64,000 nucleotides of DNA from Eledone cirrhosa (lineage: Eukaryota), in contig OZ024741.1 in the NCBI GenBank assembly GCA_964016885.1, forward strand, positions 293,198,001 through 293,262,000, written 5' to 3'. A model generated the notes under the pieces. The model was not told where the DNA came from and ran no database searches. It saw nothing but the letters and a program-made list of their open reading frames with translations. Positions 5,448 to 60,230 of this stretch are shown one piece after another (the stretch's first letter is position 1; every line of letters begins with the position of its first letter). The position numbers were made by a program, and so were the translations under genes.

Positions 5448-5522
<75 letters not shown>

Positions 5523-5524
<2 letters not shown>

Positions 5525-6170
5525 CATCATCATCATCATCATCCTCGTTTAACGTCCATATTCCACGCTTGCATGAGTTTGGACGGGAGTTTTCCCACTT
5601 GAGGCAAGAGTGGTTGTCTTGCTCGCATAGGACTGTCTGGCGGGTTTTCTATGGCTGTATGCCCCTCCTAACACCAACCACATTTACAGTGTGGAACTGG
5701 GAGGTTTTTACCATGTTACCTACACGGCCACATTACAGCGTGGACTGTGTGTTTTTTTTGTCGTGACACCTACACGACCTCATTTGTTTCGGCCTGGATG
5801 TTGTGGTACCAACATAACTTTACATTGAAAGGGGCGGTGTGGATGGGGTGGGGGCAGTGGGACAGGGGTGTATTTTGTTAGAGGTGCCTACTGACTGTAG
5901 TAGGTTTTACTTTGTATTTAGATAAGGCGGGTCTTCTCTATTACTGAGTACCGCCAAAGATCTCGGTCCAGTGACATTGTCTTGGAGAGGTGTAAGTGTG
6001 TGAGGTCGGAATTTATCAAGTCGTCCCAGGTTTTTCTGGATGTGGCTACTCCGTGGCTACCGTCTATTTTTATTCCCCTGCACTTTGTTATACAGCTGTC
6101 GTCTTTCATGCGCATCACGTGACCATACCAACGTAGCCTTCTCTCGAGTAAACAACATCTGATCCCTCAT
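5523..6170 (-). mobile_element. RTE LINE 3' fragment with (GAT)n tail
   Basis: ORF 5918-6118 matches the RTE C-terminus. The 3' UTR is homologous to 4037-4430. Confidence 0.88.
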
Positions 6171-9380: not shown

Positions 9381-10184
9381 CATAATTCTCTTTGTTTACT
9401 TTTTAGTATTGGTGTTGTTTTTATTATTACTTTTATTATGTTTTTTAGCAGTGGTATTATTATTTTAATTATTTTATTTACTTTTTGTGTTGTTTTTATT
9501 GTTGTTGTTGTTGTTAAGAGTTGTGGATGATGGAAGAGAGAAATTTGTAAATCCCATTTGTTGCTAAATAAATCAAATAAGATAATTTAATATAGAATTT
9601 CTGAAAATTTCTACTTTCATTCAGTGTGTCTGAATGATGTAGAAATTCATTAACTAAATGAGTTTTCACTGTGGCATTTTTTGTTTGTTACATTATATAT
9701 ATATATATATATATTTATATGTATGTGTATATATGTGTGTGTGTGTGTGTACTCACATACACATATGTATGTATGCATGTGTATGTGTGTGTGTATGTAT
9801 ATATGTATATATATTTACACACTATCCAGTTAATGAGCAGTGTTTGGTAACATGGTATTTTAAAATAGTCACTTATTGTTTCCACAAATAAGTAGCTTAC
9901 TGTGTTACTGTGCCTTTTTGTTGTTTTACTATGTCTAGTCTTTTATTTCTTTCCTAAATGTTTTTCTTCTGTAAAGCATGTTCTTGTTCTTATGTTCTTT
10001 ATTGTTCTAGCATATAGTATATATGGTACACATATCGACACATGCATACATATAGACACATACACTCACACAATATGTTTCCTAGCCTAAGTATACATAT
10101 ATATACGTTTGTATGTATCTATATATATATATATGAGAATAAACGTGCTGCGTGGTTGCAAATGGGTTACATATGAATAAAGTG

Positions 10185-10285
10185 GTCCTCATCAGTGATC
10201 TTCCAACCATCACAGGTATTTCTTCGCTTTAAAGACCATATACCTCCGGTTGGTGCGAGCAACGGCTAAAAAAAGTCATTGGGAC
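10185..10285 (-). ncRNA. Candidate non-circularly permuted hammerhead ribozyme (copy A1)
   Basis: Reverse complement of the motif at 10663-10764, with intact CTGATGA and GAAA. Confidence 0.6.
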
Positions 10286-10662
10286 ACGTAAATAAAGGGG
10301 ACAGCGAGAGTGTAAAGAAACAAAGATGGTGAAGCAACGAAAAATGAGGAAGAACGAGTCAAGTCCCAAATTTCCATGAGTATAAGTTCGGTGAAATCAT
10401 TGACGAGAGAGAATAAAGACCATCAAATCTGGTTGGAATGTGAGCAAGGAAGGAATTCCGTACAGGTCTAACGGGAGGAAGAAGGAATCTAGTCTGTGAA
10501 TTCGGTGAACATAAATTCTGTGAAATCGTAGACGAGAGAGAGAAAAAAGGCGAACCAGCCTAACCAAGCGTGCGAAAGAAAAGAATTACGCACAGGTTAA
10601 ACGGGAAGAAGGAGTTCACCATCTTTGTTTCTTTACACTCTCGCTGTCCCCTTTATTTACGT

Positions 10663-10764
10663 GTCCCAACGACTTTTTTTTAGCCGTTGCTCGCACCAAC
10701 CGGAGGTATATGGTCTTTAAAGCGAAGAAATACCTGTGATGGTTGGAAGATCACTGATGAGGAC
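10663..10764 (+). ncRNA. Candidate non-circularly permuted hammerhead ribozyme (copy A2)
   Basis: AGGTAT(10704-09)-A-TGGTCTT(10711-17), then GAA-ATACCT(10727-35), then AAGATCA(10747-53)-CTGATGA(10754-60). Stem III is 6 bp and stem I is 7 bp. Extra helices are CCAACC/GGTTGG and GTCC/GGAC. Confidence 0.65.
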
Positions 10765-11295
10765 CACTTTATTCATATGTAACCCATTTGCAACCACGCA
10801 GCTCGTTTATTCTCATATTTACACATATTTTTTCCCCCGCTGTGACCGGTCTATTTCCTTCTTACTGTTTCCTCTGTCTCTGTATCTTTACCCTCTCTAA
10901 CAGTCACTCTCTCTGTTAGCCTCTTCCTCACCCTTCACTCACTCTCTGTTACTACTTCTCCTCCTCCTCCTTCTTCCCGTTTGACCTGTGCGTAATTCTT
11001 TTCCTTCGCACGCTTGGTCAGGCTGGTTCGCCTTTTTTCTCTCTCTCGTCTACGATTTCACAGAACTTATGTTCACCGAATTCACAGACTAGATTCCTTT
11101 TTCCTCCCGTTAGACCTGTACGGAATTCCTTCCTCGCTCACATTCCAACCAGGTTTGATGGTCTTTATTCTCTCTCATTCACGATTTCACCGAACTTATA
11201 TTCATGGAAATTTGGAACTTGACTCGTTCTTCCTCACCTTTCGTTGCTTCACCATCTTTGTTTCTTTACACTCTCGCTGTCCCCTTTATTTACGT

Positions 11296-11396
11296 GTCCC
11301 AACGACTTTTTTTAGCCGTTGCTCGCACCAACCGGAGGTATATGGTCTTTAAAGTGAATAAATACCTGTGATGGTTGGAAGATCACTGATGAGGAC
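11296..11396 (+). ncRNA. Permuted hammerhead candidate, copy A3 (GAAA mutated to TAAA)
   Basis: Tandem copy of 10663-10764 with a core substitution at 11359. Confidence 0.5.
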
Positions 11397-11403
11397 CACT
11401 TTA

Positions 11404-12032
<629 letters not shown>

Positions 12033-12511: not shown

Positions 12512-12995
12512 TTAGAAGAGACAAGGTGCTGTGTGGTTACTAAAAACGAGTGTTTAAAAATATAAGGAAAACACAAAGGACAGATCCCCTCTTCAGTTGT
12601 CTACTGTGGGTCTTGGATGTTTCAATGTATCAAAGACTATATGTCTATCCACAGTGCGTCAATAACTGGAAAGTTATTGGGGAAAGAAAAGAAAAGGAGA
12701 TGATGGCAAAGAGAAAGAAAATAAACAAACAGAAGAAAGAAACACAGAAAACATATCAACAGAGAGGGGGAAACACAAGGAGTAGCTCATGAATGTAACA
12801 GTAACCAAAAGGAGAGAGGGGAAGAAGTTAAACCGGTGGGTGGGCGTAAGCCATGGGACCTTATTAACAGCAAGATGGAGAGTGAAAAAAAATATGTCTA
12901 TTCGTGGAGAGAACAGGTGTAAAGAGGGAGAGACAAAGGAAAACAGAAGTAGTAAGAGAGAGAAAAACAAAGAAAGAGGGAGAAAAGGAGGAAGG
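12505..12995 (-). mobile_element. Diverged relative of the 10.1 kb element (subfamily C) carrying a permuted hammerhead candidate at 12585-12683
   Basis: Minus strand has the CCCAATAACT hairpin, GAAA, AGACAA-CTGAAGA and a downstream gtaaccacacagcac motif shared with the 10.1, 36.8 and 59.6 kb elements. Confidence 0.6.
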
Positions 12996-15663: not shown

Positions 15664-18600
15664 TTCCTTGAATCTCAGTCATTGATGTTGGTTAACTGGA
15701 AAGTCCGTTGGATTGAATATCAAGCCACTACCTGCAGCCTCAGATATTCAGGACGTATCGGAGGGTTCTTGCCGTTCCAAGCAAGCATGCCTTTTGAAGC
15801 GTTCCAAAAAGCGTGAAGGGGCCGATTTTCTTTAACCATCCCTGGAAACCTTTGGAGATAGTCCCCAGTGCGCCTATGACAATCGGGATCACTTTGACTT
15901 CATGGCAGTTCCAAATCCTTTTCACCTCCCACTTTAGGTCCTGGTATCGGTTAATTTTCTCCCTCTCCTTCTCTTGCACTCTCGTGTCGAACGGGCAGGC
16001 CACATCCACAATCAGGCACGATCTTTTTTCTTTGTCCACAACCACCAGGTCAGGTCTATTGTGTTCCAGTTTTTTGTCCGTCTGTATCCTAAAATCCCAC
16101 AGCACCTTCACCTGACTGTTCTCCATCACCGCCTCTGGCCTATGCTCATACCATTTCTCAGAATGTGGTAGATTGTTTACTTTGCACAGGTGCCAGTGGA
16201 TCACCCTGCCCATCACATCGTGTCTCCAGCCCTTATAGTGGGTCTGGGCTAGGTGTTTACACTCGGACACAATGTGAGCCACAGTCTCCTCTCTCTCTCC
16301 ACAGATCCTGCACAGTGGGCTAGCCTCCTCCTTGTAGATATGGTGCTTCAACCACTTCGTTTTGAGGGCCTGCTCCTGCGCAGCCATTAGCATTCCTTCT
16401 GTAGCCTTTTTGAGGTCTCCTCTTCTCAACCAGTTCCATGTCTGTGGATCTCTAAATTCAGTTTTCTCAAAGAAGGTACTATGAAGGGATTTTCCCTTAA
16501 GGCTGCTCTTCCTCCTTGATGTTATTTCCTCCTTGGGTATCCCCTGGCCTACTGTCCCCTCCTTCAGTACAGCTCTGAGCATTGGCTCCTTACTATAGGT
16601 CACGTATTTGTATAGGTTGTTTTTCTCCATCTGAACACAGTCCTCTATGCTGATAAGACCTCTTCCACCCTCAGATCTCCTTAGGTAGAGTCTATCGACA
16701 TCACTCCTCTTGTGGAACATGTTGTAGATAGTCAATAGCTTCCTAGTCTTCCTATCCATTTCTTTTTGTTCAGCAACATTCCATCTCAGAATTCCCGCAC
16801 TGTACCTAATAATAGACACAGCTCGGGAATTTACTGCGCTTATGGCATTTCTGCTGTTCAGATGTGACTTCAATACGCTCCTTACTCTCCGAATGTATTC
16901 AGTTCTTAACAATTCCTTCATTTTTTTGTTCTTTATGCCATCAGCCTCCAGAACGCCCAAATACTTGTATCCTTCCTCAGAGTCAATTTCCTTTATCATC
17001 TCACCTGTTGGTATCTGGATCCCGTTACTTCTGCTCAACCTACCCCTCCTCATCACAATGACTCCACATTTACCAATACCAAACTGCATACATATATCAC
17101 TGCTGAAAATACGGACAGTGTCAACAAGCACATCCAACTCCTTCTCACTTTTCCCGAAGAGCTTAAGATCGTCCATGAAGAGGAGGTGATTGATGGTAAG
17201 CTCTCCCCTTCCCAACTTGTATCCTGCTCTCACTTTTCGCAGCATAATGGTCAAGGGCATCAGGGCAAGGACAAACAACAGAGGGGACAGGCTATCTCCC
17301 TGGAAGATACCTCTCTTGATCTTCACGCTTCCCAAGGATACTCCAGTTGATGTCAACTCTGTCTCCCAGGACCCCATACTCCTGCCCAGCAACTGTCTGA
17401 TGTTATCTGCCACCCTGAAGATCTCCAGGCTTTTGGTGATCCAGGAATGAGGCACCATGTCAAATGCCTTTCTGTAGTCTATCCATCCCATGGCAAGATC
17501 AGTGTGTCTCCTCCTGCAATTCCCCATTACCATCTTATCAATAAGCAACTGGTCCTTTGTACCACGTGACTTCTTTCGGCATCCTTTCTGTTCGTCCGGC
17601 AACAAGTTGTTTGTGTGGAGGTGATGGTAGATTTCCTCAGACACAATGCTCGTCAACAGTTTCCACATTACGGGCAGACATGTGATAGGTCTATAGTTGG
17701 TAACATCATTACCCTTGATTCGGTCTTTCATTATCAGAACTGTGGTACCTTTTGTCAACCACTCTGGCACCTCACCCGACACCAAGCAGTCATTGAACAT
17801 GGCCGTCAGCTTCGGGTGGAGGGATGTTAAATGTTTAATCCAATACCCCTGCACACCATCTGGGCCTGATGATTTCCAGTTGGTTAGTTTTTTGGCTTGC
17901 CCCTTAAGAGTTTCAACTGTGATACTCAAATCAGTCTGTTGCTGTGCCTGCTCACCGATCTCCCTCTGTACTGTCTCAATCCACCCTGCCTGGGCATTGT
18001 GTCTAACATCCTGCTCCCATATTCCTCTCCAGAATGTTTTAGCTTGTTCCGCCCCAGGGATCAAGTCGTTGCCTCTTTCTTTCCCCTCAAGCTGTCCAAA
18101 CAGCATCTTCTGGTTGTTGTCGAACATGCGGTTCTGTTTATACTGACTGACTCTGTTCTCGTATCGCCTGATTTTGGCACTCTTTGCTACAATGCGTTGC
18201 TTCAATTCCTCTATGATAATATTTAGCTTTTTACTCCTAGTTTTGTATTTTATTTCCAGTCTATTTTTAGTGCCTATGTTTTTTAGTGTCCCATTCAGTA
18301 GTGACTCAAGCTTTCCTATGTCATTTCTCATTTCCCCGATTTGCCCACTCAGTCGCTTCTTCCACCACGGCTCTGCTCTTTCTTGTCTGTTGTTTCCTCT
18401 CGCTTTTATACCAAGTAGTTTCCTCACCGTATTTGCTGTTGCTTTGAGGATATTGTTGTACTGGTGAAGACTCCTCGCCTCAAGGTATGGGATGACTTTG
18501 TTTACCTTAGCTGTTGTTTCTTTTAACTTTTTCCTGTCTACAAATCTTAGGTTCATAGGTCTCCCACTATCATTGTTCAACTCATCTACCACTAAATTTA

Positions 18601-20187
18601 GGATGTCAACCGAATCTTGTCCTAGCCCGTCAGCATTCATCTCCTCAGTGGCCGTATCTCTGTTCCAGGTATTATTTATCTCAGTATTCAGATCATTGTC
18701 TGCTTCGGGTGGTTCCTCCGTTCTCAGGACCTCCTCACCTTCATTTCCCGCCGGCTCGCTTGTCTGGCATACTACACCCGCCATCTCCAAGCCATTCTCT
18801 CTGCTCAGTTCCTCCAGTTCCAGCTCGCTTATCCACCCATTAGTTCTTATTACCCGAGCCTGCCCGGCCAATTTTTGTTCATCTAATTTAAATAAACCAA
18901 TCTCGTTCCAGATGTTATGCATCCGTCTCCTGTAGCCCCTCTCCTTGGGGTTACTTTTCAGGTAGCATTGCATAACAGTTCTATTCAATTCTTTCGTCCA
19001 GTTGGTTCTGGCCCCTTCCCTTCTTCTTCTTCCTCCAACATCACCAGTATTTGGTTGACAGTCAGGTTCCTGCTGCTGAGCCAGGGGGCACCTGTTGGGT
19101 GAGAGTCTGTCACATGACGTTCTAGTCTCCATTTCACCGTTATTCGAACTGTTTATGTTCGATATTTAAACACTCTTATCGAGGATTGGCGAATGTATGT
19201 TTACATAGCCATCTGTGGATCCGCCATCCCACTTGGCCCTTGTGTGGCATTATCACCACGCTGTATACGGACACACATAAACAAACAAACACACGGGCAG
19301 AAAGGGCCCCAAAAATGAATAAGCATAAGTTTCATTGTAATGTAGTATTCGAATGTCTGACTTAGTTTTTGTTTTTTAAGTTTTACTTTTTCCCCCCTCT
19401 TCTCTGTCCGTCCGCCTGCTTCTCTCTTCATTCTTATTTTCTTTACGTTTTTGGGGTTTCTTTTTTTGTTTTTGTTTTTCTCTGTTTTTCTCGTTTTTTA
19501 CTGTTGTTGCTGTGCTGCTTTTGTTGTTTGTTTTTTCTTTTTTCTTTTGAGTCTATCTATATATTTTGATGCCTTCCTCTTTGTTAGTAGTAGGAATTCT
19601 ATAATGTGGAAGTGGTAGCCAGCAGAGACTGGCGGCGTTGGCGATACTGAGACAGTGGTGGTGGTGATGTCGATACCGAGGCAGTGGTGGCGGTGATGCG
19701 ACCGTATTACTGTAGTGATGGTGCTGTAGCGGTGGCAGCAGCAGTGAAGGAGTCAAGGGGTGGTGGCGGCGGTGATGGGATAGTGGTGGTAATGATGGCC
19801 GTAGTGAGCGGTGGCGGTGAAGGTGAAAATGCTGTTGTGTTTAGTGTACACAGATGATGGGGTGGGTGGTGTATCTAGTTTCTGGTGTTGGTGAGTTTAG
19901 CTGTCCTATATAGTGTAGCCAGAGGAGAGGAGGGGGGGGGTTCTTCTTCTTCCATTTATAGCCATTTTTTTTTGGATATACAGTGTACAATACAAAGTTG
20001 AATATTTGAATATTTGAGCCTTATAACAATATATTTTGGGTCCGAATTTTTTTGGGGCTCAAGCCGGGTGCTTTACGTAGCATTTGTACTAAGAGTTGTT
20101 ATTTCACAAATGATTTAAATATGTTAAAAATTCAAAATTTACGGGAGCGATTTCATGACCTCCGTCACCTCGTGCGTCTTCTTCCCT
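15664..20187 (-). mobile_element. Apparently full-length R4/Dong-clade non-LTR retrotransposon inserted in (TAA)n
   Basis: Single intact ORF, short 3' UTR, about 1 kb putative 5' UTR, and (TTA)n tracts directly on both sides (15614-15663 and 20188-20244). Confidence 0.8.
15740..19132 (-). CDS. Reverse transcriptase plus CCHC knuckle plus restriction-like endonuclease (R4/Dong type), 1130 aa
   Basis: RT motifs SGPDG, NYRPITCL, DYRKAFD, GIFQGDSLSPLLF, FMDD and YKYLG. CCHC knuckle CRICGEREETVAHIVSEC. Endonuclease motifs RHD, PDLVVVD...IVDVACP and EKINRY. Confidence 0.95.
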   Translation of the reverse strand: METRTSCDRLSPNRCPLAQQQEPDCQPNTGDVGGRRRREGARTNWTKELNRTVMQCYLKSNPKERGYRRRMHNIWNEIGLFKLDEQKLAGQARVIRTNGWISELELEELSRENGLEMAGVVCQTSEPAGNEGEEVLRTEEPPEADNDLNTEINNTWNRDTATEEMNADGLGQDSVDILNLVVDELNNDSGRPMNLRFVDRKKLKETTAKVNKVIPYLEARSLHQYNNILKATANTVRKLLGIKARGNNRQERAEPWWKKRLSGQIGEMRNDIGKLESLLNGTLKNIGTKNRLEIKYKTRSKKLNIIIEELKQRIVAKSAKIRRYENRVSQYKQNRMFDNNQKMLFGQLEGKERGNDLIPGAEQAKTFWRGIWEQDVRHNAQAGWIETVQREIGEQAQQQTDLSITVETLKGQAKKLTNWKSSGPDGVQGYWIKHLTSLHPKLTAMFNDCLVSGEVPEWLTKGTTVLIMKDRIKGNDVTNYRPITCLPVMWKLLTSIVSEEIYHHLHTNNLLPDEQKGCRKKSRGTKDQLLIDKMVMGNCRRRHTDLAMGWIDYRKAFDMVPHSWITKSLEIFRVADNIRQLLGRSMGSWETELTSTGVSLGSVKIKRGIFQGDSLSPLLFVLALMPLTIMLRKVRAGYKLGRGELTINHLLFMDDLKLFGKSEKELDVLVDTVRIFSSDICMQFGIGKCGVIVMRRGRLSRSNGIQIPTGEMIKEIDSEEGYKYLGVLEADGIKNKKMKELLRTEYIRRVRSVLKSHLNSRNAISAVNSRAVSIIRYSAGILRWNVAEQKEMDRKTRKLLTIYNMFHKRSDVDRLYLRRSEGGRGLISIEDCVQMEKNNLYKYVTYSKEPMLRAVLKEGTVGQGIPKEEITSRRKSSLKGKSLHSTFFEKTEFRDPQTWNWLRRGDLKKATEGMLMAAQEQALKTKWLKHHIYKEEASPLCRICGEREETVAHIVSECKHLAQTHYKGWRHDVMGRVIHWHLCKVNNLPHSEKWYEHRPEAVMENSQVKVLWDFRIQTDKKLEHNRPDLVVVDKEKRSCLIVDVACPFDTRVQEKEREKINRYQDLKWEVKRIWNCHEVKVIPIVIGALGTISKGFQGWLKKIGPFTLFGTLQKACLLGTARTLRYVLNI

Positions 20188-23518: not shown

Positions 23519-24360
23519 GTTAAAGATGTACATCCATATATGTATACTGAAATACTAGTATGTATATGAATACACACACGTATACATATGTAGATGTACC
23601 AAGTTTTTTCACTGGTCACTTTACTGTGAGTGGCCAGCTATTCTGTATGTAAACACACAGACAAACCGGTTTTTAGAGTCATACTGGTTTTTGAGGAAAC
23701 ACCTTTCCTCTATTCTCCAGAAAGCCAGACAAGGAATATTGAACTAGTTTCGTTGTTGTTACAACTCATCAGCAATATTTACCTATCTTCCGGCCTCTCT
23801 AGAGAATCGTAAAAGCACATATCGTTATATGCTTTTTCTATGAAAATTAGTAGTGGGCAGACTAATTTGCATAGAGTGTGAGTAAGTACCGGTTCAACGG
23901 AGACGATAAAAACAAATAACGAAACGAAATTAAATTTCGTTTCGTTTGTAACTCACTTTTGTATGACTGACGCTTAAACAATTAAGTTAAAGATGTACAT
24001 CCATATATGTATACTGAAATACTAGTATGTATATGAATACACACACGTATACATATGTAGATGTCCTTGTCTGGCTTTCTGGAGAATAGAGGAAAGGTGT
24101 TTCCTCAAAAACCAGTATGACTCTAAAAACCGGTTTGTCTGTGTGTTTACATACAGAATAGCTGGCCACTCACAGTAAAGTGACCAGTGAAAAAACTTGG
24201 TACATCTACATATGTATACGTGTGTGTATTCATATACATACTAGTATTTCAGTATACATATATGGATGTACATCTTTAACTTAATTGTTTAAGCGTCAGT
24301 CATACAAAAGTGAGTTACAAACGAAACGAAATTTAATTTCGTTTCGTTATTTGTTTTTAT
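23513..24360. mobile_element. Retrozyme-like non-coding element: 467-bp unit, partial tandem plus inverted copy
   Basis: aattaagttaaagatg recurs at 23513 and 23980. 24065-24360 is the reverse complement of the circularly joined unit. It is flanked by (TA)n. Confidence 0.8.
23735..23779 (-). ncRNA. Minimal type I hammerhead ribozyme
   Basis: AATATTG-CTGATGA-GTTGT aaca ACAAC-GAAA-CTAG-TT^CAATATT: full core, 7-bp stem I, 5-bp stem II, palindromic stem III, GUU site. Confidence 0.88.
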
Positions 24361-30445: not shown

Positions 30446-30506
30446 GTGTACACATAAGAAGAGGGGGGGGGGGTAGTGAAATGGAATTTTACCTCCGAGT
30501 GTTAAT

Positions 30507-31148
30507 TCATTTTTTCGTGTTCAGTAGTGGTTTAAATTTTTCAATGAAGAATTCTTCTTTATATCTGCGGAAATGTTCGTTATGCGACCATATCTTGAAG
30601 AAAGGGAAGATTGTGAATTTTCCCTTCCCGCATGATGCAAAGTGTGCGCTACATGTGGTATTTCTGACTGTGGTGTCTTTAATTTGTTGTTTATGTACCC
30701 GGACTCTATCATGTAGTCCCGTTCCGGTTTCCCCAATGTATACTCTTTACACTGTGGACATGTTGCGCAATGTATTAGGTTTTTCGTTTTGCAGTTCATG
30801 TTTGCATTGACCTTGAAATTATCATGGTTTTTGAAGGACAACTGTTTGCCCTCTTCGATGAGTTCACAGGTTCCACATCTAGGGTCCTCGCATTTCGTCA
30901 CTTCATTGATTCCATGTTGGTCGTAAATTTTGCCTTGGTAATTAGTTTTTTAAGGTTGGGTGCTTGGCGTCTGCTATAAATTATCTGTGTGTTTTTTAAG
31001 AGTGCATTCATTTTGGTAGATTGCTGTAGAATCGGGAGATACTGATTAGCAGTTTTCACAATGTTGATGTTCCCTGGGTTGTGAGTGATGACAAAAGAGA
31101 TAGCAGGGTTTTCTTTTTTATGTTGTGGGTTTGGTTTTCTCAGTGTTG
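30507..31148 (-). pseudogene. Penelope-like element GIY-YIG endonuclease region (frameshifted)
   Basis: Linker FVITHNP...YSRRQAPNLKKLI, then CEDPRCGTC...CKTKNLIHCATCPQC, then after a frameshift YIGETG..LHDRVRVH...KEEFFIEKFKPLLN*. Confidence 0.88.
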
Positions 31149-36829: not shown

Positions 36830-37300
36830 TAAAATATATGGAAAATAGGATTGGCTGTGTAGTTGCTAGTTAAGTTAGGTTTAAAAATGGAATGAGAATA
36901 TGAGAATAAGAAGAAAGCAAGAACGGGGGGGGGGGGGTTCTCATCAGTTGTCTACTGGGGGTCTCGGATATTTCAATGCTGGGGGTAGATATATCTACCC
37001 CCAGAGCGTTCAATAACTGGATAAGTTATTGGGAAAACGGATGAGGGAGGGAAGGAAAATAGAAGGGAAAAGGAAAAGAGAGAAGAAAGGAGAAAACAGC
37101 ACAAAAAACAACAAACCAGGGAATGTGCGAGCAACTTAAGGTAAGAAAATTCAAGACCACAGCGGTAACAGAACTTAAGTTCGAGAGCCTGTGGGCAAAG
37201 GAAAAGACACGACTGACCCCAGAGAGTGTAAGTGAGAAAAGGACTGCTAGATGATCAGGTGAGGGAAACAATGAGGTGGCTGGAAGAGAGTGAGGCTGTT
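36830..37300 (-). mobile_element. Subfamily D element with rearranged permuted-hammerhead motif (36937-37038)
   Basis: Homologous to 12505-12995. Minus strand has the CAATAACT hairpin, GAAATATCC and AGACAA-CTGATGA. Confidence 0.6.
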
Positions 37301-59569: not shown

Positions 59570-60230
59570 AAAATTAGACCTTCACCAGTGATCTTCTAAC
59601 CTTCATTGGTATTTCATCGCTTTAAAAATCATATACCTCTAGTTGGTGCGAGCAACAAGTAAATAAAGTTATTGGGACAAGTAAAATAGGGTGAAACGAG
59701 CGAGACATGTAAACAAACAAAGATGGTATTGCAACGGAAAGATAGGAAGAGACAAGTACATGATATCTATAAGCTTAAGCTTGGTGAAATCATGGACGAG
59801 AGATACAGACCATCCAACCTGGGTGAGATGTGAGCGAGAAAAGGATTTCACAAAAGTCAAACGGGAGGAAGTGAGAGAGGGAGAAGCAGAGAGTGAGTGA
59901 GTGGAAGTGTGAGGAAGAGGCCAGCTGAGAGAGAGTGTGACTGGCAGAGTGGCTAAAAAGAAGGTGAGAGGTACAGAGAGAGGGGAAGCAGTAAGAAAGC
60001 AACATACAGGTCGCAGCTGAGGAAAAAAATATAAATATAAGAAAAATGGAGTGCTGCATGGTTGCAATACCATCTTTGATTGTTTACATGTCTCGCTCGT
60101 TTCACCCTATTTTACTTGTCCCAATAACTTTATTTACTTGTTGCTCGCACCAACTAGAGGTATATGATTTTTAAAGCGATGAAATACCAATGAAAGTTGG
60201 AAGATCAATGATGAAGGACTAATTATATTT
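59570..60230. mobile_element. Subfamily B non-coding element with inverted duplication and two permuted-hammerhead copies (59577-59678 minus, 60118-60219 plus)
   Basis: 59572-59735 is inverted at 60061-60225. Homologous to the 10.1 kb element. Confidence 0.75.

What the first reader, a model, noticed from the sequence alone, without database searches (positions are those of the whole stretch)
10663..10764. Hammerhead ribozyme candidate with scrambled (non-circularly permuted) strand order
Seen: all three hammerhead core strands are present and pair correctly. Stem III is AGGTAT/ATACCT with GAA before it and an AUA triplet (predicted cut after 10710). Stem I is TGGTCTT/AAGATCA directly before CTGATGA. 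The order is [III-UH-I], [GAAA-III], [I-CUGANGA]. Established: types I, II and III are the three circular orders, and this is none of them, so standard searches would miss it. Extra helices brace the fold and covary across subfamilies in this window: CCAACC/GGTTGG here, CCAACT/AGTTGG at 60.1 kb, ACTGTGG/CCACAGT at 12.6 kb and CTGGGGGT/ACCCCCAG at 36.9 kb. There is also a closing helix (GTCC/GGAC, TCCCC/GGGGA) and a CAATAACT/AGTTATTG hairpin. Weak point: stem II is at most 1-2 bp and is a G-A mismatch in this copy. I recall a published report of natural non-circular hammerhead permutations, so novelty must be checked against it.
Basis: partly seen in the sequence, partly recalled or inferred. 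Interest (0 to 1): 0.9.

Follow-up and report, generated by a model that had tools for sequence, protein, structure and literature searches.

The report
Scrambled hammerhead ribozyme of Naiad retrotransposons
A predicted self-cutting RNA (hammerhead ribozyme) whose three core strands lie in a scrambled order sits in an estimated twenty thousand jumping-gene copies in this animal genome, and the same predicted fold lies at the ends of published Naiad retrotransposons that were thought to lack such ribozymes.

Summary
The strand order is type SGC, a non-circular permutation published in 2023 from metatranscriptomes and, by that paper's statement, not found in the genome of any known organism. 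Here it sits in 490-646-nt non-coding repeats with Penelope-like insertion anatomy. Across 9 subfamilies (240 of 245 copies), 0 of 11 core positions change against 80 of 109 others, and every helix covaries. Stem II is thus replaced by a four-way junction with at most one true stem II pair, which breaks the block rule of the published permutations. Read by eye, 7 of 38 published Naiad 3' ends (corals, hydrozoan, box jellyfish, acanthocephalan, octopuses) show this fold, 1 shows classical SGC and 6 (nematodes, spider) show type CSG. Naiads were reported to lack canonical hammerheads. Cleavage is untested: no RNA run was listed, and a pile-up of insertion 5' ends at the cut site did not replicate. 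This copy's sub-lineage has a mismatch at 10.1-11.1. Verdict: new variant of a known kind, high interest.

The parts
10663..10764 (+). Whole predicted ribozyme: leader - S block - G block - C block (type SGC order, stem II replaced by a four-way junction)
10663..10666 (+). Helix IIa 5' strand; pairs with 10761-10764 directly after the core
   Evidence: 2 of 4 pairs change on both sides; weakest helix (80-86% of cells paired)
10667..10689 (+). Junction hairpin (10667-10673 with 10683-10689)
   Evidence: best of 5460 placements; 3 of 7 pairs change on both sides
10691..10694 (+).
   Evidence: first pair is U-A in 7 and A-U in 2 of 9 subfamilies
10696..10701 (+). Interaction helix 5' strand; pairs with 10741-10746 and joins the far ends of stems I and IIb
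   Evidence: all subfamily cells paired, 5 of 6 pairs change on both sides, best of 5671 placements
10704..10717 (+). S block: stem III 3' strand (U16.1 = 10709), H17 = A10710, predicted cut 10710/10711, stem I 3' strand
   Evidence: H17 is A in 7 and C in 2 of 9 subfamilies, never G
10718..10735 (+). 4-nt linker, IIb 3' strand, position 11.1 (A10726), G block (G12 = 10727) and stem III 5' strand
10747..10764 (+). C block: stem I 5' strand, CUGAUGA 10754-10760, IIa 3' strand
10620..11413 (+). Host element: one 632-nt non-coding unit plus a partial second unit ending in (TA)n; the second ribozyme copy (core 11386) has G12 changed
10121..10614 (-). Inverted, 5'-truncated copy of the same element with an intact ribozyme (core 10195), ending in (TA)n about 45 nt further out
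12578..12686 (-). Ribozyme copy of subfamily B
36930..37038 (-). Ribozyme copy of subfamily C, stem I strand replaced by a local fold-back
59570..59681 (-). Ribozyme copy of subfamily D (core damaged), inverted partner of the next
60115..60226 (+). Ribozyme copy of subfamily D (C3 changed), ends in (TA)n

Best explanation
This is a predicted self-cleaving hammerhead ribozyme with its three core strands in the non-circular S-G-C order, carried by short non-coding repeats that likely descend from Naiad-type Penelope-like retrotransposons. Shown: the order; invariance of the core; covariation of stems I and III, the interaction helix and the junction helices; the Penelope-like insertion anatomy. 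Inferred fold: stem III closes a loop holding the cut site and the GAAA strand. The later C block pairs back into that loop (stem I). The interaction helix ties the far ends of stems I and IIb together, as in published type SGC. Unlike published SGC, the strand that should follow CUGAUGA as stem II sits at the 5' end instead. It is clamped to the C block by helix IIa and a hairpin, giving a four-way junction with zero or one true stem II pair. In effect the two ends of an SGC ribozyme are joined and new ends are opened inside stem II. Inferred role: it cuts after H17 (10710 here) and releases unit-length RNA from tandem read-through transcripts. That RNA, linear or circularised, is copied by a Penelope-like reverse transcriptase supplied in trans, starting 20-65 nt downstream of the core, into (TA)n targets. 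Odds that the lineage's ribozyme cleaves: about 0.85; that this very copy cleaves well: about 0.5.
For: Core: 0 of 11 core columns differ among 9 subfamilies against 80 of 109 other columns (p=2e-6); 0 of 11 against 53 of 91 in the five subfamilies collected without any core-letter pattern (p=1.6e-4). The free positions behave as hammerhead rules predict: N7 is U or A, H17 is A or C. Helices: 89% of cells paired and 22 of 36 pairs with two-sided change in 40 hand-picked copies, against 32-47% when partners are slid. On a subfamily tree there are 37 minimum changes of pair state over 29 pairs, with 3 non-pairing states. The 10.1-11.1 position is A-U, U-A, G-U or G-C in 8 of 9 subfamilies. Precedent: five natural SGC ribozymes cleaved at the predicted site and needed all four stems (PMC10085705); the short I-II linker and the interaction helix match. 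Host: partial tandems, inverted truncated copies, two 3' ends about 45 nt apart and (TA)n flanks are the features described for Penelope-like elements (PMC8557442; PMC11167929). By eye, the same seven-helix fold in unrelated letters lies in 7 of 38 published Naiad 3' ends, three lineages of them with no 10.1-11.1 pair at all.
Against: No cleavage or expression data. In this copy's subfamily 50 of 57 copies have a mismatch at 10.1-11.1. This copy's nested minimum-energy fold is a competing structure and no better than shuffles (z=-1.05); 3 of 6 sequences folded had z below -2.4, and the program cannot form pseudoknots. Subfamilies are related, so the changes are fewer independent events than cells; R-scape was not available. 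The pile-up of insertion 5' ends at the cut site (12 of 25) failed to replicate in a window fixed beforehand (1 of 14). No coding element carrying this ribozyme was found in the genome. The abundant intact Penelope-like family has a canonical type I hammerhead and shares no sequence with these units. The genome's Naiad remnants carry a different S-G-C-ordered motif. In the one Penelope-like element tested in vitro, hammerhead cleavage was not needed for insertion (PMC11167929). The Naiad readings are by eye, from the last 450-600 nt of consensus sequences, and most names were assigned from the order of records.
Confidence: 0.8

Rival explanations
1. The strands work in trans or across tandem units: S and C blocks of one unit with the G block of the next would give a formally circular (type III-like) or dimeric hammerhead, as for minimal Penelope-like hammerheads.
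For: The elements occur in tandems. Animal Penelope-like hammerheads are reported to work as dimers (PMC4209133).
Against: Stem III (5-6 bp closing a 20-nt loop) and the interaction helix are local and covary within one unit. Dimeric forms arise from an unstable, palindromic stem III, which is not the case here. The same arrangement lies in 3-4 kb Naiads. Monomeric SGC ribozymes cleave in cis (PMC10085705).
Confidence: 0.07
2. A fossil or protein-binding structure: the fold descends from a ribozyme but is now kept as a recognition signal for the reverse transcriptase, and cleavage is slow or irrelevant, at least in this copy's subfamily.
For: Mismatch at 10.1-11.1 in 50 of 57 subfamily A copies. 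15 of 42 upstream copies extend more than 250 nt past the cut site. The 5'-end signal did not replicate. Cleavage was dispensable in vitro for one Penelope-like element.
Against: All 11 catalytic positions are fixed across subfamilies as little as 56% alike, H17 avoids G, and the same core is kept across phyla; a binding signal need not follow catalytic rules. Read-through past the site is also expected from circular or partly cleaved templates.
Confidence: 0.11
3. Chance arrangement of short motifs in a repeat, with apparent covariation from shared ancestry.
For: Only 9 subfamilies, with one deep split (B and C against the rest). CTGATGA alone is barely enriched in the window (16 against 10.3 expected).
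Against: The descriptor averages 0.013 hits per shuffled window. Each main helix is the best or near-best of 5,460-5,886 placements. Compensatory changes also occur on shallow branches (subfamilies F, H, G). The same fold appears in unrelated letters in cnidarian and acanthocephalan Naiads.
Confidence: 0.02

Closest known systems
Type-SGC hammerhead ribozymes (HRIMA-1 and variants; Eckert et al. 2023, PMC10085705)
   Same: Block order S-G-C; short linker from stem I to stem II (4 nt here, typically 3 there); a helix joining the other sides of stems I and II; full core.
   Different: There, stem II is formed directly between blocks G and C, and by my reading of the text the interaction strand follows it at the 3' end. 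Here that strand is at the 5' end and stem II is a four-way junction with zero or one pair. [quoted passage not shown]
Naiad Penelope-like elements (Craig et al. 2021, PMC8557442)
   Same: (TA)n targets, partial tandems, inverted truncated copies, a 3' tail. By eye, the same ribozyme fold in 7 of 38 consensus 3' ends; the two Octopus Naiads also share short sequence words in the hairpin loop and after the core.
   Different: The window's elements are 490-646 nt and have no reading frame. The paper reports that Naiads lack canonical hammerheads and flags only 'core' or 'half-core' matches.
Non-LTR retrozymes (as defined in bioRxiv 10.64898/2026.07.22.740005)
   Same: Non-autonomous tandem repeats with one hammerhead per unit, proposed to derive from the terminal repeats of Penelope-like elements.
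   Different: Those carry type I hammerheads; these carry a non-circular permutation that descriptors for types I-III cannot match.
Minimal type I hammerheads of Penelope-like elements (Cervera and de la Pena 2014, PMC4209133)
   Same: Position near the 3' repeat of the element; same core.
   Different: Those are circular-order with a vestigial stem III and act as dimers; here stem III is 5-6 bp and stem II is the reduced arm.

Membership tests
Hammerhead ribozyme | Conserved core CUGANGA, GAAA, UH | tested here: met
   0 of 11 core columns vary among 9 subfamilies
Hammerhead ribozyme | Stems I and III flank the cut site | tested here: met
   5 of 7 and 3 of 6 pairs change on both sides; 90% and 93% of subfamily cells paired
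Hammerhead ribozyme | Stem II closed by a 10.1-11.1 pair next to the core | tested here: inconclusive
   Paired in 8 of 9 subfamilies, mismatched in this copy and in 50 of 57 of its subfamily; absent by eye in coral, hydrozoan and acanthocephalan Naiads
Hammerhead ribozyme | Self-cleavage after H17 | not testable with these tools
   No RNA holder listed; genomic 5'-end test inconclusive
Types I-III (Rfam hammerhead models) | Circular order of the three blocks | tested here: not met
   Order is S-G-C; no hammerhead model matches 10550-10900 up to E=10
Type SGC (Eckert 2023) | Block order S, G, C | tested here: met
Type SGC (Eckert 2023) | Short stem I-to-II linker and an interaction helix joining the other sides of stems I and II | tested here: met
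   4-nt linker; helix 10696-10701 / 10741-10746 fully paired in 9 of 9 subfamilies
Type SGC (Eckert 2023) | Uninterrupted block C whose 3' part forms stem II with block G | tested here: not met
   The strand before GAAA pairs with the 5' leader, and the strand after CUGAUGA pairs with the 5' end
Non-LTR retrozyme | Tandem non-coding units with one hammerhead each | tested here: met
   Spacing 625-646 nt in 18 of 20 A pairs, 490-516 nt in 8 of 9 D pairs
Non-LTR retrozyme | Type I hammerhead | tested here: not met
Non-LTR retrozyme | Circular RNA form | not testable with these tools
   No RNA reads available
Non-autonomous Naiad-type Penelope-like element | Partial tandems, inverted 5'-truncated copy, 3' tail, (TA)n target | tested here: met
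Non-autonomous Naiad-type Penelope-like element | 3' end shared with a coding Naiad in the same genome | tested here: inconclusive
   No model hit tied to a Naiad in 36 remnant loci; the remnants carry a different S-G-C motif; the link rests on published Octopus Naiads read by eye

The most novel reading that the evidence does not exclude
Non-circularly permuted hammerheads are the missing ribozymes of Naiad retrotransposons across invertebrate phyla: SGC with a four-way junction in place of stem II in cnidarians, acanthocephalans and cephalopods, CSG in nematodes and a spider. The junction form is a seventh hammerhead topology, opened inside stem II, and it has been amplified to some twenty thousand copies in one animal genome. 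SGC and CSG are circular permutations of each other, so tandem terminal repeats would explain how one became the other.
Probability: 0.7. Interest if true: 0.9.

Novelty: new variant of a known kind. Interest (0 to 1): 0.82.

Why it matters
Non-circular permutations of a natural RNA were known from one study, in sequences of unknown host, and were thought rare. If these cleave, they are among the most abundant ribozymes in some animal genomes and are invisible to standard descriptors and to Rfam. They would answer a stated puzzle, why the highly successful Naiad elements seem to lack the hammerhead found in other Penelope-like elements, and undercut the suggestion drawn from that absence that hammerheads merely parasitise these elements. 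They would give type CSG (two known sequences) and type SGC a host and a likely job. They would also show that stem II can be replaced by a four-way junction, which the published block model excludes. Each claim is testable with 110-nt transcripts.

Tried and rejected
Expression: no RNA holder listed. The three runs laid were contigs of unrecorded kind from one sample and cannot show ends. They show only, by a crude depth sum, that U is commoner than A at position 11.1 among relatives at least 88% alike (82-86% of depth).

In-vivo cut signal: 5' ends of insertions lay within -10..+16 of the cut in 12 of 25 breakpoints of upstream copies against 3 of 32 of terminal copies (window chosen after seeing the data). 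On 77 new loci with the window fixed, the counts were 1 of 14 against 2 of 12; pooled 13 of 39 against 4 of 43, p=0.013. Three further new ends lay just outside (-13, -12, +17). Copies chosen by BLAST with the whole ribozyme, copies at locus edges and copies starting more than 250 nt upstream were left out. A scan-corrected test of the pooled histogram without TA-microhomology junctions gave p=0.20. Treated as inconclusive.

Autonomous partner: the abundant 1240-aa Penelope-like family was rejected as the source, because it has a type I hammerhead and no BLAST match to the units; it remains a candidate helper. Two short motifs from the Octopus Naiad ribozyme found 0 and 4 places, none with a model hit below E=0.26.

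The genome could not be searched with the covariance model, so copy number is an extrapolation from one pattern. The published Naiad sequences were not aligned, folded or searched by tool, which leaves those readings unquantified. Single-sequence folding did not recover the pseudoknotted fold. No earlier scan findings were returned.

Full report
1. Observation. A descriptor for the order site-GAAA-CUGANGA with stems I and III finds 3 sites in the window (10754+, 10195-, and 29522+, which I take as chance) against a mean of 0.013 in 150 shuffles. Rfam gives no hammerhead match in 10550-10900 up to E=10. A covariance model built from 40 copies finds 7 copies in the window at 83-115 bits and two weak matches.

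2. Host element. The motif lies in a 632-nt non-coding unit. In the window one unit and a partial second run into (TA)n on the plus strand, and a 5'-truncated inverted copy runs into (TA)n on the minus strand. The 3-Gb genome gave 1250-2359 first-look candidates for each of six subfamily queries, of which 40 each were scored. Tandem spacing is 625-646 nt in 18 of 20 subfamily A pairs and 490-516 nt in 8 of 9 D pairs. (TA)n begins 15-24 nt after the core in 12, and 60-74 nt after it in 20, of 60 A copies; in 25 none lies within 200 nt. Partial tandems, inverted truncated copies, an optional tail and (TA)n targets are described for Penelope-like elements (PMC8557442, passages), and the tail reflects two internal start sites of reverse transcription (PMC11167929, passages). 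A pattern for the G and C blocks at this spacing matches 33,554 times against 724 for the reversed control. Of the first 100 listed, I count by eye 68 of this family, 30 chance matches in the repeat of another element and 2 unrelated, which extrapolates to roughly 22,000 copies.

3. Structure. From loci L001-L285 I collected 245 distinct full-length copies; 240 fall in 9 subfamilies of at least 5 copies, 56-90% alike. None of the 11 core columns differs among them, against 80 of 109 other columns (p=2e-6). In the five subfamilies collected without any core-letter pattern the figures are 0 of 11 against 53 of 91 (p=1.6e-4). Within subfamilies the core decays nearly as fast as the rest (3.0% against 4.1%), as expected for copies that are dead once inserted. 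N7 is U or A; H17 is A or C. Stem I, stem III, the CCAACC/GGTTGG helix and the hairpin are each the best or near-best of 5,460-5,671 placements of their length, and the few equals are other helices of the model. The GTCC/GGAC helix is weaker (20 of 6105 placements as good). On 40 hand-picked copies 89% of cells pair and 22 of 36 pairs change on both sides, against 32-47% paired when partners are slid. On a tree of the 9 subfamilies there are at least 37 changes of pair state over 29 pairs, with 3 non-pairing states. These are related sequences and no R-scape test was possible.

4. Stem II. The strand before GAAA pairs with the 5' leader (IIb), the strand after CUGAUGA pairs with the 5' end (IIa), and the hairpin lies between them: a four-way junction on top of the core. 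A single 10.1-11.1 pair is present in 8 of 9 subfamilies in four types (A-U, U-A, G-U, G-C). It is a mismatch in 50 of 57 copies of subfamily A, this copy included, and the A sample is biased towards the window's own variant. This copy's nested minimum-energy fold is a competing structure (z=-1.05).

5. Known permutations. Eckert et al. 2023 (PMC10085705; I read the abstract, parts 2-4 of 8 of the text, section 16, part 1 of 2 of the Discussion, and passages; not the supplements, which hold the alignments and could bear on how close their variants come) define blocks C, G and S and name this order SGC. Five natural SGC RNAs cleaved at the predicted site, all four stems were needed, and rates were 0.007-0.19 per min. 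Type CSG rested on two sequences. [quoted passage not shown] It assumes that CUGANGA and its adjacent stem strands cannot be interrupted. The present RNA keeps the short I-II linker and the interaction helix but breaks that assumption. It reads as an SGC ribozyme whose ends were joined by a 2-nt linker and reopened inside stem II (inference).

6. Naiads. Craig et al. 2021 (PMC8557442; passages, the metadata sheet, and excerpts of the consensus file) report that Naiads lack canonical hammerheads, although some have a core that fits no descriptor. I read by eye 38 of the 54 consensus 3' ends: three in part 24 of the file and the last 450-600 nt of the others. Names were assigned mostly from the order of the sheet. 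Seven show the full fold described here in different letters: Ovul, Obim, 2_Movir, 3_Chem, Plae, Amil and Anas, which is five lineages. One (Lpol) shows classical SGC. Four show partial or uncertain S-G-C arrangements (Esco, Bfor, Ptep, Sdum). Six show complete type CSG with an interaction helix (1_Nbra, 2_Nbra, 3_Nbra, Hcon, Hpol, Smim). Twenty show nothing in the stretch seen. The Octopus Naiads also share short words with subfamily E in the hairpin loop and after the core.

7. Partner in this genome. An abundant Penelope-like family with frames up to 1257 aa and a C-terminal endonuclease (recognised by recalled motifs; Pfam gave no match) carries a minimal type I hammerhead and has no BLAST match to the units. 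A reverse-transcriptase motif found 3 places, no more than its control, yet all three translate as broken Naiad-like genes. One of them retrieves 166 candidates; the 40 scored are mostly 70-81% alike. The model finds no hit tied to these remnants in 36 loci. Their aligned 3' regions show a different S-G-C-ordered motif with a GUC site, a 7-bp stem I and the core UUGANAA in 8 of 16 rows; the U3-A8 core is a reported natural variant (PMC4209133, passages). So the Naiad origin is likely but not shown, and the enzyme that moved the young subfamilies (up to 96% within-family identity) is unknown.

8. Does it cut in vivo? No RNA run was listed. If templates begin at the cut, insertion 5' ends should gather there in copies followed by another unit but not in terminal copies. 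The first sample showed this (12 of 25 against 3 of 32). A replication on 77 new loci with the window fixed did not (1 of 14 against 2 of 12; pooled p=0.013). I count it as inconclusive. Of 42 upstream copies, 15 extend over 250 nt past the site, so uncut or circular templates are used too.

9. Mechanism and novelty. Most likely the RNA folds as a monomer, cuts after H17 and frees unit-length RNA from tandem read-through transcripts, which a Penelope-like protein copies in trans. The fold is supported by covariation; the cut and the role are inferred. Nine full-text searches returned no paper that places non-circular hammerheads in animals or in Naiads. A 2026 preprint linking retrozymes to Penelope-like elements (10.64898/2026.07.22.740005; abstract and passages) treats only types I and III, and a 2026 paper (PMC13725137; passages) cites only Eckert and two others for alternative forms. 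Subscription papers outside the library were not searched. Verdict: a new variant of a known kind, interest 0.82.

Noticed in passing
window 23719-23790 (-): Canonical-order minimal type I hammerhead with a short palindromic stem III; Rfam HH9 match at E=6e-6, below the gathering score.
   Followed up: partly
window 11436-12030: Near-perfect long inverted repeat centred on a (CA)n(TA)n(TG)n microsatellite, directly after the element's 3' end; gives spurious miRNA matches.
   Followed up: no
window 15743-19165 (-): 1141-aa open frame of a non-LTR retrotransposon (Pfam RVT_1, E=6e-23).
   Followed up: partly
window 30500-30950 (-): Frameshifted C-terminal GIY-YIG endonuclease fragment of a Penelope-like element, between (TA)n tracts (motif recognised from recall, no Pfam match).
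   Followed up: partly
window 36975-37000 (-): A 26-nt perfect palindrome made by fold-back inside the subfamily C ribozyme copy, replacing the stem I strand right at the predicted cut site.
   Followed up: partly
L151-L162 (G000): Abundant Penelope-like family with 1000-1257-aa frames, about 90% alike in protein, with partial tandems, (TA)n targets and a type I hammerhead in the repeat; no Pfam match for the L151 protein. Candidate helper enzyme.
   Followed up: partly
L170-L205 (G000), about 1.0-1.7 kb into the oriented stretches: Decayed Naiad-like family whose 3' region holds an S-G-C-ordered hammerhead-like motif with a U3-A8 core and a hairpin just before GAAA, a second architecture.
   Followed up: partly
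PMC8557442 File S5, ends before Naiad_Sglo, Naiad_Tgra, Naiad_Pmar, Naiad-2_Skow, Naiad-2_Pfla, Naiad-2_Chem, Naiad-3_Chem: Bivalve, hemichordate and two hydrozoan Naiads without a hammerhead share a different conserved, structured 3' motif that may be another ribozyme; class unknown (by eye).
   Followed up: no
PMC8557442 File S5, ends before Naiad-2_Movir and Naiad-1_Nbra: One end resembles a twister ribozyme and the other an HDV-like ribozyme (both from recalled motifs, untested), suggesting that Naiads swap ribozyme classes.
   Followed up: no
L003, L008, L017, L027 (G000:C6:48.38-48.40 Mb): A long head-to-tail array of subfamily A units, at least five per 3-kb locus, 91-94% alike to the window unit.
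   Followed up: no
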